Assembly (NCBI GenBank): GCA_051005735.1
Contig: JBPCJB010000125.1
Location: 1 to 30,738 of the forward strand
Reading direction: 5' to 3'
DNA: 30,738 bases
Source: Gaiellaceae bacterium
GTDB lineage: Bacteria; Actinomycetota; Thermoleophilia; Gaiellales; Gaiellaceae
Shown piece after piece: positions 7,214 through 20,748 of this stretch. The notes below the pieces were generated by a model. It ran no database searches. It was not told where the DNA came from and saw nothing but the letters and a program-made list of their open reading frames with translations. Position numbers and translations under genes: made by a program. Numbering within the stretch: position 1 is the stretch's first letter; each line of letters starts with the position of its first letter.

Positions 7214-7780
7214 CTAGCCGAGCTCGGCCTCGATCGCGCGCGCCAGCTCGGCCGGGTCGAAGCCGTCGGGGCCGCGGTCGCCCTGGAAGGCGATCCGGCC
7301 GTCGCGGCCGATCAGGTAGAGCCGGTCGGGCCAGCCGCCGTAGGCCAGGGCGACGGCGTCGTCGACGTCGTCGAGGAGCAACGGAATCCGCGTCTGCAGG
7401 CGCGCGACGCACGCGTCCGCGGCGGCTGCCCGCTCGTCGTGCGTCGTCGGATCAGTGAGCGCGATTTCCTCCCGGCGGTTGTCGGCGAGCACCCAACCGT
7501 CTTCCGGATGCGCTTCGCGGATGTAGACGATGAAGAACGCGACCTCGTCGCCGTGGCGTTCGTAGAGGTCCTCCAGCTCGCCCAACTGGCGGCGGAAGGG
7601 AGGTCAGGTGTAGGAGCCGAAGACGAGCGCGACGGCGTGCCCGCGAGCTCGGCGAGTCGAACGCGCTCGGCGCTCGGGCGCTGCGATTTCGGGGTCGAGC
7701 CGCGGCAGGTCGAAGGGGAAGGCGGGATCGCCGGGGCCGACCTCGGGAGTCATCAGGCTCTGGTAGCCGGGGGACCCCAT
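7214..7780 (-). CDS. Iodothyronine deiodinase-like selenoprotein (thioredoxin fold), Sec at in-frame UGA 7606-7604
   Basis: ATG at 7780 (GAGG upstream) is in frame with TGA 7604-7606 and with the ORF 7214..7585. Read-through gives VALVFGSYT-U-PPFRRQLGELEDLYERHGDEVAFFIVYIREAHPEDGW...YGGWPDRLYLIG..GRIAFQGDRGPDGF, matching the deiodinase signatures FGSxTUPPF and YIxEAH. Confidence 0.9.
7570..7603 (-). promoter_or_regulatory. Candidate bacterial SECIS hairpin directly 3' of the deiodinase-like UGA
   Basis: The minus strand after UGA reads CCTCC-cttccgc-CGCC-AGTTG-GGCG-agct-GGAGG: a lower stem CCTCC/GGAGG, an upper stem CGCC/GGCG, and an apical loop containing GU about 17-21 nt from the UGA. Folded by eye. 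Confidence 0.65.
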
Positions 7781-18487: not shown

Positions 18488-19087
18488 CTAGCTCTGAGCT
18501 CCCAGAGCTCGACGGAGCCCGAGCAGCCAGCGCGGGATCCGGCGCCGGGCGTGCGCGAGCGCATCGTCCACTTCGGCGCCGGCCCTCTCCCCGTGCCGGC
18601 CGGCGCCGTGGCCGACGAGGACGTGCAGCGCCGCCAGGCCCCGCAAGCTGCGCAACCGGAAGGGGCGCAGGAATGGGTGCACTCCGATGGGCTCGGCGCC
18701 CGCCTTGAAGAACGGGATCGTTCCGAGCGCGTCGGCGCAGACGAGGATCCGCCGCTCCGGCCACCAGAGCGCGACCTCCTGCCAGCGTCGCCAGGACGAG
18801 ACGCGGAGGAACGTGAACGGCGTCCCGGGGAGCGAGTCGGGCACGACGTGGAGCGGCACGCCGAGCCGCGCCGCCAGCGCAGCCGAGTCGCGGCCGTGGC
18901 GGTCGACGAGCTGGATCACGCCGGCCGGCGTCCCGAGCTCTCGGACGCGCTCCTCGAGGCCGTCCGCCTCGAAGGGGTCGATCAGATAGACGCGACCGTC
19001 GACGGCGAGCGCGTGCGCCGCTCTGTGCAGCCGCTCGTCCTCGATCCAGCCGAAACCTCCCTCGACCTCGTCGACGAACTCGGTCAC
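18488..19087 (-). CDS. Hypothetical protein with a metallo-beta-lactamase-like fold pattern and a degenerate metal motif
   Basis: 199 aa with VYLIDP, QLVDRHGRD (at the HxHxDH position), LVCADALG and VLVGHG. It is coupled to the upstream gene by a GTGA overlap. Confidence 0.65.
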   Translation of the reverse strand: MTEFVDEVEGGFGWIEDERLHRAAHALAVDGRVYLIDPFEADGLEERVRELGTPAGVIQLVDRHGRDSAALAARLGVPLHVVPDSLPGTPFTFLRVSSWRRWQEVALWWPERRILVCADALGTIPFFKAGAEPIGVHPFLRPFRLRSLRGLAALHVLVGHGAGRHGERAGAEVDDALAHARRRIPRWLLGLRRALGAQS

Positions 19088-19689
19088 GGGGGTTCCAGCT
19101 CGGCGAAGCCCTGCTCGAAGACCGCGTCGGGCTGGGCGCCGAGGACGAGCAGGTGCCGGTCGAGGAGGAAGGCAGGCACGCCGGTCGCTCCGATCGAAAT
19201 CGCCTGACGCGTAGAGCTCTCGATCCGCTCACGGTAGCCGTCTCCAGCGAGGACCGACTCGACCTCGTCGTCCGGGAGCCCGAGCTCCGCGGCCAGGGCA
19301 CGCAGGACGGCGGAGTCGCCGAGATCCTGCGCCTCGGCCCAGTAGGCGTCCATCAGCCGGTCGTGGGTCTCCTCGTGACGACCGAGCTCGCGCGCCAGCT
19401 CCGTGAGCCGCAGCGCCTTCATCGTGTTCGGCACCAGGTCGGGGTGCGGGTTGTACTCGAGCCCGCGGGCCGCGAAGGTCGCCCTCATGCGCTCTGTCAT
19501 CCCTTCGCCGTAGCGCGCCAGCAGCTCCGCTCGTGGCATGCCCTCGGGCGGGTATTCCGGGTGGAGATCGAACGGGAGCCAGACGATGGTGGCGCCGAAC
19601 CGGCGACCGAGCCAGGTGGCGGTTGGTTGCGCCACGCGGCAGAAGGGTCAGATGTAGTCGCTCCAGATCGCGACGGTCCGCTCGCTCAT
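19084..19689 (-). CDS. DsbA/FrnE-family thiol oxidoreductase selenoprotein with a UxxC active site (UGA 19650-19648)
   Basis: ATG at 19689 overlaps the hisA stop (ATGA). It reads MSERTVAIWSDYI-TGA-PFCRVA..., in frame with ORF 19084..19635, which has WLPFDLHPE, PNTMKALRL, LMDAYW and the cis-Pro motif GATGVPAF. The UGA occupies the first Cys of the family motif SDxxCPFC. Confidence 0.88.
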
Positions 19690-20408
19690 ACCTCGAGGCT
19701 AACCGCCTCGGCGAGCCTGAAACGGCCCAGCCAGAGCGCGCTCCCGGCCACCGCTCCTTCGCAACCAAGCTTCCGGATCGCGCGGAGATCGTCGAGCGAG
19801 GCGATCCCGCCGGCCGCGAGCACCGGTAGCTGCGAGACCTCGAGCACCGTCGCGAGCAGCTCGAGGTCGGGTCCGGCGAGCGAGCCGTCGCGGCTCGTGC
19901 TCGTGGCGAGCAGGCGGCTCACGCCCGCGACGCGGCATTGCTCGGCGAGCTCCGCCGCGGTTGCGGTCGAGCGCGCGGCCCAGCCCTGGACTGCGACGCG
20001 CTCGTCTCGCACGTCGACGGCCACGACGATCCGGTCGCCGAAGCGCTCCACGGCCCGATCGAGGAAGCTCGGCTCGAGCGCCGCGGTGCCGACGAGCACC
20101 CGGGCCGCCCCGGCAGCGAGGGCCCCGGCGATCGCCTCGAGCGTCCGGTAGCCGCCCCCGACCTGGATCGGCGCCTCCGTTGCGGCGGTCACAGTGCGCA
20201 CGAGCTCGGCGGTGGGGAAGCCGCGGAAGGCGCCGTCCAGGTCGACGAGATGGAGCCACGACGCCCCTTCGGATGCGAAGCGCGCCGCCGCGACCGCGGG
20301 ATCGCCGCCCTCGACGGTGACGCGCGCGGGATCGCCCTGCGCCAGCCGGACGACCCTGCCGGCGAGGACGTCGATTGCGGGATAGACGGTGAAACTCTGT
20401 GATTGCAC
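19686..20408 (-). CDS. hisA: ProFAR isomerase
   Basis: YPAIDV, HLVDLDGA, QVGGG, VGTAA, RDGSLAGPD, AAGGI and GSAL. Confidence 0.92.
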   Translation of the reverse strand: MQSQSFTVYPAIDVLAGRVVRLAQGDPARVTVEGGDPAVAAARFASEGASWLHLVDLDGAFRGFPTAELVRTVTAATEAPIQVGGGYRTLEAIAGALAAGAARVLVGTAALEPSFLDRAVERFGDRIVVAVDVRDERVAVQGWAARSTATAAELAEQCRVAGVSRLLATSTSRDGSLAGPDLELLATVLEVSQLPVLAAGGIASLDDLRAIRKLGCEGAVAGSALWLGRFRLAEAVSLEV

Positions 20409-20425
20409 GCTAGCATGCTAACATG
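20406..20425. promoter_or_regulatory. 20-bp palindrome (candidate operator) containing back-to-back -10 hexamers for hisA and the his operon
   Basis: CACGCTAGCATGCTAACATG is 16/20 symmetric with the perfect core TAGCATGCTA, which reads TAGCAT on both strands. The minus-strand TAGCAT lies 6 nt before the hisA GTG. Confidence 0.7.
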
Positions 20426-20430
20426 GAGCC

Positions 20431-20748
20431 ATGGCGCGCGAGACTGTGGATTCTGCTCGTCCGGTCGAGCGGCTGCCGGGCCTGGACGACCTCGCCGCGG
20501 CGATCGTCAGCCTGCGCTCGACCGACGAGCTGAAGCGATTCCTGCGCGACCTCTGCACGCTGCCCGAGCTCGAGGCGCTCACCCACCGCTGGCAGACGGC
20601 CCGCCTGCTAGAGGAGGGGGTGCCGTATCTCGAGATCGCCGGCCGCGTGCCGACGAGCACGGCCACGGTCACTCGCGTCGCCCAATGGCTGCGGCACGGC
20701 ACCGGCGGCTACCGGATCGCGCTCGACCGCGCGCGCGGGCGGAAGTAG
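20431..20748 (+). CDS. TrpR-like YerC/YecD transcriptional regulator (HisR-like)
   Basis: 105 aa with FLRDLCTLPELEAL..RWQTARLL..G.PY.EIA....TSTATVTRVAQWL.HG.GGY, the YerC/YecD TrpR-like HTH pattern. It is the first gene of the his operon. Confidence 0.88.
   Translation: MARETVDSARPVERLPGLDDLAAAIVSLRSTDELKRFLRDLCTLPELEALTHRWQTARLLEEGVPYLEIAGRVPTSTATVTRVAQWLRHGTGGYRIALDRARGRK

What the first reader, a model, noticed from the sequence alone, without database searches (positions are those of the whole stretch)
19084..19689. Second hidden selenoprotein: DsbA/FrnE-like UPFC oxidoreductase translationally coupled to hisA
Seen: an ATG overlapping the hisA stop (ATGA) begins MSERTVAIWSDYI-UGA-PFC, in frame with the rest of a DsbA/FrnE-type protein. 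Without read-through the annotated ORF has no active site. After the UGA a roughly 10-bp stem can form (GCCG-c-GTGGCG / CGCCAC-c-TGGC), but its loop CAACCAAC has no G. A smaller alternative hairpin with a GUG or GCGU loop forms 7-20 nt after the UGA, so the SECIS would be non-canonical. Known: UxxC/CxxU Trx-fold selenoproteins, including DsbA-like ones, occur in bacteria. Inference: a cytoplasmic Sec oxidoreductase under the same promoter and operator as hisA, an unexpected link between histidine regulation and selenium redox chemistry.
Basis: partly seen in the sequence, partly recalled or inferred. Interest (0 to 1): 0.8.

Follow-up and report, generated by a model that had tools for sequence, protein, structure and literature searches.

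The report
Selenocysteine DsbA-like gene, two-hairpin signal
The in-frame TGA is almost certainly a real selenocysteine codon in a cytoplasmic FrnE/DsbA-type thiol oxidoreductase of a soil Gaiellaceae bacterium; the enzyme family has been a known selenoprotein since 2005, the link to hisA is incidental, and the one unusual feature is that the recoding signal looks like two conserved RNA hairpins instead of one.

Summary
On the minus strand, an ATG at 19689 overlaps the hisA stop and opens a 201-codon DsbA/FrnE-like gene. Its TGA at 19650-19648 sits at the first Cys of the CxxC motif, giving UPFC.

- **Real Sec codon:** The same TGA column is kept in 109 of 112 orthologous loci from Gaiellales. 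Cys orthologues exist. The genome has selA, selB, selD and tRNA-Sec. An independent metagenome strain also carries the TGA.
- **Already known:** DsbA-like UxxC selenoproteins (COG2761/PF01323) were described in 2005. This scan reached the same verdict twice before on other genomes.
- **hisA link not conserved:** hisA lies directly upstream in only about a quarter of loci, and a lysA-like gene is about as frequent there.
- **Recoding signal:** A second hairpin (19605-19593, loop GUU) has an invariant GU. Its Arg codons are frozen, it is absent from all 17 Cys forms, and it resembles the SECIS of three other selenoprotein genes in this genome. It lies 47 nt after the UGA, outside the usual 16-37 nt. 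Subtracting the 30-nt first hairpin restores the usual spacing.

The parts
19084..19689 (-). Full DsbA/FrnE-like selenoprotein gene: 201 codons plus a TGA stop at 19086-19084
   Evidence: Translation with TGA=U. PF01323 matches residues 5-192 at E 1e-33. Closest solved structures are SCO1869 (3gl5) and FrnE (5cnw).
19687..19689 (-). ATG start, overlapping the hisA stop TGA at 19688-19686 (ATGA)
   Evidence: Read directly. A stop lies four codons upstream in this frame, so this is the only start that includes the TGA.
19648..19650 (-). In-frame TGA = selenocysteine codon (residue 14), the first position of UPFC
   Evidence: Same column in 109 of 112 orthologous loci. It aligns with the first Cys of CPWC in SCO1869 and with Cys in orthologue P0091. 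No variant was seen in runs X2 and X4.
19611..19640 (-). Hairpin 1: 4 bp, a C-C mismatch, then 6 bp, with an 8-nt loop CAACCAAC. It starts 7 nt after the UGA.
   Evidence: Covariation: 0 of 500 shuffles reach the observed score. 72 of 86 distinct sequences keep at least 9 of 11 pairs in one of two registers. Mean folding energy is -19.6 kcal/mol in Sec forms against -12.1 in Cys forms.
19593..19605 (-). Hairpin 2: a 5-bp GC stem with loop GUU (19600-19598). It is the likely SelB-binding part of the SECIS.
   Evidence: G51 is invariant and U52 is present in 84 of 86 sequences. The Arg codons are fixed as CGC and CGG, with entropy 0.17 and 0.00 bits against 0.98-1.59 bits at the other 10 conserved Arg columns. 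The hairpin is present in 82 of 86 Sec forms and 0 of 17 Cys forms. There is a weak Rfam SECIS_3 match of 17.9 bits.
19084..19635 (-). Truncated ORF that standard gene callers report (GTG start, 183 aa, no active site)
   Evidence: ORF list. Database relatives are 167-183 aa.
19686..20408 (-). hisA (HisA/PriA family), immediately upstream in the same orientation
   Evidence: PF00977 at E 3e-65 and TIGR00007 at 218 bits.
18488..19087 (-). Downstream ORF of 199 aa. Its GTG start overlaps the selenoprotein gene's stop (GTGA). No family is assigned.
   Evidence: ORF list. No Pfam or NCBIfam hit. A homologue lies downstream in 53 of about 108 loci. Atlas lead to the MBL fold.
20431..20748 (+). Divergent YerC/YecD TrpR-related regulator gene, followed by hisG
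   Evidence: TIGR02531 and PF01371. The same arrangement is seen in the Cys-form locus L036.

Best explanation
**Proposed identity and function**
- The gene encodes a cytoplasmic FrnE/DsbA-type thioredoxin-fold oxidoreductase.
- Its attacking active-site residue is selenocysteine (U14-P-F-C17), inserted at UGA by SelB and Sec-tRNA(Sec).
- Inferred chemistry: Sec14 attacks substrate disulfides or sulfenates, and Cys17 resolves the mixed selenosulfide. This would make a faster, lower-pKa version of the CxxC enzyme.

**Shown here**
- The TGA is conserved and Cys orthologues occupy the same column.
- The genome carries the Sec machinery.
- Two Sec-associated RNA hairpins follow the codon.

**Inferred about the signal**
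- The recoding signal is bipartite.
- Hairpin 2, a GC stem with a GU loop, is the SelB-binding element.
- Hairpin 1 is a folded 30-nt spacer that brings hairpin 2 to the usual distance from the ribosome. The unpaired spacer is 7 + 4 = 11 nt.

**Genomic context**
- The gene is probably co-transcribed with hisA and the downstream 199-aa ORF.
- The hisA neighbourhood is incidental.
For: **The selenoprotein**
- The TGA is at one column in 109 of 112 orthologous loci.
- Cys orthologues exist: P0091 at 62% identity with CPFC, L092, and others.
- The residues before the TGA (IWSDYI) are conserved in frame.
- The genome holds selA at 427 bits and selB next to it, selD at 346 bits, and tRNA-Sec.
- TGA is also used as an ordinary stop, for hisA and for this gene itself.
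- No variant was seen at the TGA in independent runs.

**Family**
- PF01323, and PDB relatives SCO1869 and FrnE.

**Signal**
- Hairpin 1 covaries.
- Hairpin 2 has an invariant GU and frozen synonymous sites.
- Both hairpins are weaker or absent in 17 Cys forms.
- Three other selenoprotein genes of this genome have a GC stem with a small GU loop. They are deiodinase-like, SelW-like and DsrE-like, each with a conserved TGA in relatives.
  - The stems start 12 to about 18 nt after the UGA.
  - The deiodinase-like hairpin core is identical to the hairpin 2 variant of several orthologues.
- The GU is at column 51. Subtracting the 30 nt of hairpin 1 gives column 21, which is the deiodinase-like position.
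Against: - There is no direct evidence of Sec incorporation, that is, no protein or labelling data.
- This is an 80%-complete MAG, so the machinery genes lie on other contigs.
- The role assigned to each hairpin is inference.
  - In most relatives hairpin 1 has a G at the second loop position and sits at the canonical distance, so by the published model it could be the SECIS itself.
  - Distant Sec forms at 30-42% identity have only one hairpin, at that same place.
  - A covariance model built from the other three genes' SECIS scored hairpin 2 at 12.2 bits and hairpin 1 at 10.2 bits, which does not discriminate.
  - With synonymous codons resampled, the window's own hairpins are only slightly more stable than expected (z -0.3 and -1.2).
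- Relatives are not independent samples.
Confidence: 0.9

Rival explanations
1. Hairpin 1 alone is the functional SECIS, at canonical position and with a tolerant loop. Hairpin 2 is an accessory element, for example a pause site or a stabiliser, or a second SelB site.
For: - Hairpin 1's loop starts 18-19 nt after the UGA, inside the 16-37 nt range (PMC13188914).
- In 71 of 86 sequences column 24 is G, the second position of the 7-nt loop in register B.
- Distant Sec forms carry a single hairpin at this position, with GG or GGU in the loop.
- Hairpin 1 covaries.
Against: - Loop G24 is no more conserved than codon bias predicts. CAA occurs in 9 of 78 Gln codons there, against 7% genome-wide.
- The window and L013 have no loop G at all.
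- Hairpin 1's loops never resemble the GU loops of the other three selenoprotein genes.
- Hairpin 2 is the most constrained element and is lost in every Cys form, including L036, which keeps hairpin 1.
Confidence: 0.25
2. The TGA is a nonsense mutation or an assembly error, so the gene is a pseudogene or only the truncated 183-aa product is made.
For: Gene callers and databases report only the truncated ORF.
Against: - The TGA is at the same column in 109 of 112 loci from independent assemblies.
- The 13 codons upstream are conserved in frame.
- No variant was seen in independent runs.
- The truncated product would lack strand beta-1 and the active site.
Confidence: 0.02
3. TGA is read as another residue (Trp, Gly or Cys) through a changed genetic code or near-cognate read-through, without selenocysteine.
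For: Near-cognate read-through of UGA by Trp- or Cys-tRNA occurs at low levels in bacteria (general knowledge).
Against: - TGA ends hisA, this gene and many neighbours.
- The full Sec machinery is present.
- The column is Cys in homologues.
- Sec-specific hairpins follow the codon.
Confidence: 0.03
4. The hisA-selenoprotein overlap reflects a functional coupling of histidine biosynthesis control with selenium redox chemistry.
For: There is a 4-nt ATGA overlap in the window. The same hisA context appears in a subset of relatives and in the Cys-form locus L036.
Against: - hisA is directly upstream in 22 of about 104 loci with enough flank.
- A lysA-like gene is upstream in about 25, and other genes elsewhere.
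- Both contexts occur within the window's own genus.
- No operator or promoter was identified.
Confidence: 0.05

Closest known systems
Bacterial DsbA-like selenoprotein, 'form 1' (COG2761 / PF01323, UxxC). Described by Zhang, Fomenko and Gladyshev 2005 (PMC1088965) and listed in the 2026 review PMC13188914.
   Same: It has the same Pfam domain and the same UxxC motif, with Sec at the first Cys position. Cys homologues are widespread. It was identified by the same logic: TGA aligned to Cys, plus a downstream hairpin.
   Different: These members come from soil Gaiellales (Thermoleophilia). I found no mention of Gaiellales in the selenoprotein papers I searched. The downstream signal has two conserved hairpins, and the GU loop lies 47 nt from the UGA.
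Deinococcus radiodurans FrnE (PDB 5cnw) and Streptomyces coelicolor SCO1869 (PDB 3gl5)
   Same: The domain is homologous over its full length (E 3e-20 and 1.5e-21). All three are cytoplasmic DsbA-fold proteins with an N-terminal CPxC at the same position.
   Different: Those proteins use Cys (CPWC). The window protein has Sec, is shorter (201 aa against 239-260) and has only one Cys besides Sec. It therefore lacks any extra C-terminal Cys pair such as the one I recall for D. radiodurans FrnE, which I did not check here.
Consensus bacterial SECIS model (bSECISearch constraints, as restated in PMC13188914)
   Same: Both hairpins meet the stem, loop-size and energy limits. Hairpin 2 has G followed by U at the start of a 3-nt loop. 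Hairpin 1 lies 18 nt from the UGA.
   Different: In this window each hairpin fails one constraint. Hairpin 1 has no G in the first two loop positions.
Rfam SECIS_3 (RF01989)
   Same: Hairpin 2 and its flanks align to model positions 17-40, the apical stem-loop with an AGUCU-type loop.
   Different: The score is 17.9 bits against a gathering score of 63. Only the apical part matches, and equal or better chance hits occur elsewhere in the genome. This is a resemblance, not membership.

Membership tests
DsbA-like selenoprotein form 1 (PF01323, UxxC) | DSBA-like thioredoxin domain | tested here: met
   PF01323 at E 1e-33, residues 5-192 of 201. PDB relatives are 3gl5 and 5cnw.
DsbA-like selenoprotein form 1 (PF01323, UxxC) | In-frame TGA at the first Cys of the CxxC motif, conserved among orthologues | tested here: met
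   UP[FY]C in 109 of 112 loci. It aligns with the first Cys of CPWC in SCO1869.
DsbA-like selenoprotein form 1 (PF01323, UxxC) | Cys-containing homologues at the Sec column | tested here: met
   P0091 (62% identity, CPFC), L092, L186 and 14 others in a sister family.
DsbA-like selenoprotein form 1 (PF01323, UxxC) | Sec-decoding machinery in the same genome (selA, selB, selC, selD) | tested here: met
   selA and selB are on C232, selD on C69 and tRNA-Sec on C196. The genome is an 80%-complete MAG.
DsbA-like selenoprotein form 1 (PF01323, UxxC) | Selenium actually incorporated at the UGA | not testable with these tools
   This needs 75Se labelling or mass spectrometry.
Consensus bacterial SECIS (bSECIS model) | Stem of 4-16 bp, apical loop of 3-9 nt, MFE of -7.5 kcal/mol or lower | tested here: met
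   The hairpin 1 region folds at -16.7 kcal/mol with an 8-nt loop. The hairpin 2 region folds at -10.5 kcal/mol with a 5-bp stem and a 3-nt loop.
Consensus bacterial SECIS (bSECIS model) | G in the first two loop positions, usually followed by G or U | tested here: inconclusive
   Hairpin 1 of the window has loop CAACCAAC, so not met. Hairpin 2 has loop GUU, so met, and its GU is kept in 86 of 86 sequences.
Consensus bacterial SECIS (bSECIS model) | 16-37 nt between the UGA and the apical loop | tested here: inconclusive
   Hairpin 1 is at 18 nt, so met. Hairpin 2 is at 47 nt, so not met. It would be 17 nt if the 30-nt hairpin 1 is discounted.
Rfam SECIS_3 (RF01989) | Score at or above the gathering threshold of 63 bits | tested here: not met
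   17.9 bits, apical part only.

The most novel reading that the evidence does not exclude
**Proposed variant**
In Gaiellales and a sister family, this gene may use a bipartite SECIS. The SelB-binding GU hairpin sits 47 nt after the UGA, beyond the 16-37 nt range of the accepted bacterial model. It would work only because a conserved, covarying 30-nt hairpin folds out of the spacer and leaves 11 unpaired nt.

**Possible origin**
The element may have arisen when SelB recognition moved from an ancestral single hairpin to a new downstream one. The ancestral hairpin is still the only one in distant Sec forms.

**Why it would matter**
This would be a new architectural variant of the bacterial SECIS. 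It would also be a concrete reason why SECIS-based predictors mis-assign or miss such genes.
Probability: 0.5. Interest if true: 0.55.

Novelty: new member of a known kind. Interest (0 to 1): 0.35.

Why it matters
- **Annotation:** A whole clade of soil Actinomycetota carries this gene. Essentially every database copy is called as a 167-183-aa protein without its active site, so the selenoproteome of Gaiellales is under-counted. Four selenoprotein genes were seen in this one MAG.
- **Biology:** The protein itself adds little, because the family is a known selenoprotein.
- **What a specialist could use:** The alignment contains a natural experiment. There are 86 distinct Sec forms with two conserved hairpins, 17 Cys forms without them, and distant Sec forms with only the first hairpin. 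Together these make a specific, testable case that a bacterial SECIS can act from 47 nt away through a folded spacer.

Tried and rejected
- **Genome-wide scans for further selenoprotein genes.** I looked for in-frame TGA plus a hairpin motif, or plus high GC3. In this 70%+ GC genome, long open frames and high GC3 occur in non-coding frames, so the scans gave mostly false positives. Adding a CxxU/UxxC filter recovered the SelW-like and DsrE-like genes.
- **Rfam SECIS_3 across the genome.** The other seven weak hits have no in-frame TGA, so such scores arise by chance here.
- **Covariance model from the other three genes' SECIS.** It scored hairpin 2 at 12.2 bits and hairpin 1 at 10.2 bits, among about 100 similar hits in the window. 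It does not discriminate.
- **Synonymous-codon resampling.** The effect was moderate across the family (mean z -1.9 and -1.4) and weak for the window's own sequence, because the amino-acid sequence itself already encodes the stems.
Rejected because its 3' arm is not conserved.
- **A stem pairing the UGA region with 19609-19606.** It appears only in the two or three closest genomes.
- **Literature searches.** Searches for a two-hairpin bacterial SECIS and for selenoproteins in Gaiellales returned nothing relevant. This shows only that the held library has none.

Full report
**1. What is in the sequence**

All features are on the minus strand.
- hisA (19686-20408; PF00977 at E 3e-65) ends in a TGA that overlaps an ATG at 19689-19687.
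- That ATG opens a frame reading MSERTVAIWSDYI, then TGA (19650-19648), then PFC. The frame runs on to a TGA stop at 19086-19084.
- A stop lies four codons upstream in this frame, so no other start can include the TGA.
- Read through, the product matches Pfam DSBA (PF01323) over residues 5-192 at E 1e-33.
- Its nearest solved relatives are S. coelicolor SCO1869 (3gl5) and D. radiodurans FrnE (5cnw). The TGA aligns with the first Cys of their CPWC motif.
- The protein starts directly with strand beta-1 and has no signal peptide, so it is cytoplasmic, as FrnE-type proteins are.
- The ORF seen without read-through (19635-19084, 183 aa) lacks the motif.

**2. Is the TGA a selenocysteine codon?**

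Four independent lines say yes.
- **Conservation.**
  - In 60 relatives of the same order, 30 loci carry the gene, each with a single in-frame TGA at the same column, UP[FY]C, down to 48% identity.
  - Adding 80 named loci gives 109 TGA among 112. These are Gaiellaceae, Gaiellales and Thermoleophilia MAGs.
  - The 13 codons before the TGA are conserved in frame.
- **Cys orthologues at that column.**
  - P0091 has CPFC at 62% identity and the same synteny.
  - L092 is another Cys form, and 15 more turned up in a class-wide search.
- **Machinery.**
  - The MAG (80% complete) has selA and selB side by side, plus selD and a tRNA-Sec with anticodon UCA.
- **No error and no code change.**
  - TGA ends hisA and this gene itself.
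  - Logan contigs of two other runs show no difference at 19648-19650. One of them is from another study and is a strain with 12 differences elsewhere.

Nearly all of the closest database proteins are 167-183 aa, that is, truncated at the TGA.

**3. The recoding signal**

I aligned the 63 nt from the TGA in 86 distinct Sec sequences. There are no indels. Column n of the alignment is window position 19651 minus n.

*Hairpin 1 (columns 11-40; 19640-19611)*
- It is kept in two registers. In 39 sequences, including the window, it has a 1x1 mismatch. In 45 it has a bulged nucleotide at column 16.
- 72 of 86 sequences have at least 9 of 11 pairs.
- It shows compensatory changes: 0 of 500 shuffles reach the observed covariation score, and slid controls fall to 25-46% paired.
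- The paired codons force covarying residues, for example V..T, A..A and I..V.
- Its loop is not conserved. The G at column 24 is the third base of a Gln codon, and CAA appears there in 9 of 78 codons against 7% genome-wide. The window and L013 have no loop G at all.

*Hairpin 2 (columns 45-59; paired 19605-19593 in the window)*
- It is a 5-6-bp GC stem with loop GUU.
- G51 is invariant and U52 is present in 84 of 86 sequences, although column 51 is a third codon position.
- The two Arg codons in the stem are CGC in 76 of 78 and CGG in 66 of 66 sequences, with entropy 0.17 and 0.00 bits. The other ten conserved Arg columns of the gene have 0.98-1.59 bits.
- The Gly codon is GGC or GGT, both of which pair, in 82 of 83 sequences.

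**4. Sec forms compared with Cys forms**

| Group | n | Hairpin 2 with 5 or more pairs | GU loop | Mean energy, hairpin 1 region (kcal/mol) | Mean energy, hairpin 2 region (kcal/mol) |
|---|---|---|---|---|---|
| Sec forms (Gaiellales) | 86 | 82 | 86 | -19.6 | -11.7 |
| Cys orthologues | 17 | 0 | 0 | -12.1 | -5.7 |

- The closest Cys form (L036) keeps hairpin 1 but has lost hairpin 2.
- Four Sec forms in a sister family, at 43-46% identity, have both hairpins.
- Twenty distant Sec forms, at 30-42% identity, have only one hairpin, at the hairpin 1 position, with GG or GGU in the loop.

**5. Comparison with other selenoprotein genes of the same genome**

Three more were found, each with a TGA conserved in relatives.

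| Gene | Location | SECIS stem and loop | Loop G at column |
|---|---|---|---|
| Deiodinase-like | window 7217-7780, minus strand | CGCC-AGUUG-GGCG | 21 |
| SelW-like | G000:C280:4916-5134 | 7-8-bp stem, loop GUC | 29 |
| DsrE-like | G000:C305:821-1180 | 7-bp stem, loop GUG | 23 |

- All three use a GC stem with a small GU loop.
- The deiodinase-like and DsrE-like stems start 12 nt after the UGA. The SelW-like stem starts about 18 nt after it.
- The deiodinase-like hairpin core is identical to the hairpin 2 variant of several DsbA-like orthologues.
- Hairpin 2 therefore looks like this lineage's SelB site, but its GU is at column 51.
- Subtracting the 30 nt of hairpin 1 gives column 21. The unpaired spacer is then 7 + 4 = 11 nt, which I recall is the spacing needed in E. 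coli fdhF (not checked here).

By the published bacterial model (PMC13188914), each hairpin of the window fails exactly one constraint. The model requires a loop of 3-9 nt, a G in the first two loop positions, 16-37 nt from the UGA, and an MFE of -7.5 kcal/mol or lower. Hairpin 1 fails on the loop G and hairpin 2 fails on the distance.

My reading, at about 65% against 25%, is that hairpin 2 binds SelB and hairpin 1 is a folded spacer. The alternative is that hairpin 1 is the SECIS and hairpin 2 is accessory.

Weak extra hints:
- Rfam SECIS_3 aligns to hairpin 2 at 17.9 bits.
- Two of the four orthologues with a degenerate hairpin 2 carry AGGU in the hairpin 1 loop, against 4 of 82 with an intact hairpin 2.
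- A covariance model built from the other three genes did not discriminate.

**6. The hisA link**

- The ATGA overlap is real, and the stop of the selenoprotein gene overlaps the GTG of a 199-aa ORF (GTGA). Co-transcription of the three genes is therefore likely but untested.
- Across loci with enough flank, hisA is directly upstream in 22 of about 104.
- In a cruder ORF-based clustering, hisA accounted for 24 upstream genes, a lysA-like gene for 25, and other genes for the rest. Both contexts occur within the window's genus.
- The 199-aa ORF is the more frequent neighbour, in 53 of about 108 loci.
- No operator was identified.
- The proposed link between histidine regulation and selenium chemistry is therefore not supported.

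**7. What is known**

- DsbA-like (COG2761) UxxC selenoproteins were reported from the Sargasso Sea in 2005 (PMC1088965).
- They were then found in complete genomes (PMC1794560) and are listed as 'DsbA-like protein form 1, PF01323, UxxC' in a 2026 review (PMC13188914).
- This scan had already followed up the same gene family in two other Gaiellaceae genomes, with the same verdict.
- The protein is thus a new member of a known kind.
- I found no description of a two-hairpin bacterial SECIS in the held library. That is not proof that none exists.

**8. Verdict**

- Observation: confirmed.
- Selenoprotein reading: about 0.9.
- hisA coupling: rejected as a conserved feature.
- The only feature that goes beyond the known is the conserved tandem-hairpin signal with a distant GU loop. 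This is well supported as an observation and about even odds as a mechanism.

Noticed in passing
window 7217-7780 (-), TGA at 7606-7604: This is a deiodinase-like thioredoxin-fold selenoprotein gene (FGSYT-U-PPF). The TGA is conserved in 26 genomes of the genus and one from another family. A hairpin CGCC-AGUUG-GGCG, nearly invariant among relatives, starts 12 nt after the UGA.
   Followed up: partly
L118:217-438 (+) = G000:C280:4916-5134: This is a 73-aa SelW/Rdx-like selenoprotein gene (YCPT-U). The TGA is conserved in 32 of 36 genomes of the genus. Its SECIS is a 7-8-bp GC stem with loop GUC.
   Followed up: partly
L119:322-684 (+) = G000:C305:821-1180: This is a 120-aa DsrE-like selenoprotein gene (VYV-U-KGC). 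The TGA is kept in 4 genomes of the genus and one from another family. Its SECIS is a 7-bp stem with loop GUG.
   Followed up: partly
window 18488-19087 (-): This 199-aa ORF overlaps the selenoprotein gene's stop (GTGA). It has no Pfam or NCBIfam family, and homologues lie downstream in about half of the orthologous loci. A language-model search points to metallo-beta-lactamase-fold proteins (PF14597) at scores of 0.94-0.95, which is a lead only. It may be a functional partner.
   Followed up: partly
A2 columns 16-21 and 30-35 (window 19635-19630 and 19621-19616): The RNA stem of hairpin 1 imposes covarying amino acids on helix alpha-1 of the protein (V..T, A..A, I..V, V..T). This is a visible case of RNA structure shaping protein sequence.
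   Followed up: no
L206-L225 (distant Sec forms at 30-42% identity, three other families of the class): These DsbA-like genes also carry the TGA, but they have a single hairpin at the hairpin 1 position with GG or GGU in the loop, and no hairpin 2. This suggests the second hairpin is a later addition in Gaiellales and one sister family.
   Followed up: partly
window 19383-19630: A 248-nt contig from a rhizosphere metatranscriptome (run X18) matches at about 94% identity. A relative of this gene may therefore be transcribed, although DNA carry-over is not excluded and the contig stops short of the TGA.
   Followed up: no
window 19457-19732: In the divergent strain of run X4, all 12 differences lie within 19485-19558. 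There are none from 19559 to 19732, the stretch that holds both hairpins, the TGA and the hisA end.
   Followed up: no
window 20408-20431: Only about 22 bp separate the divergent start codons called for hisA and for the YerC/TrpR-like gene. Either a start is mis-called or the promoters lie inside coding sequence. This was not examined.
   Followed up: no
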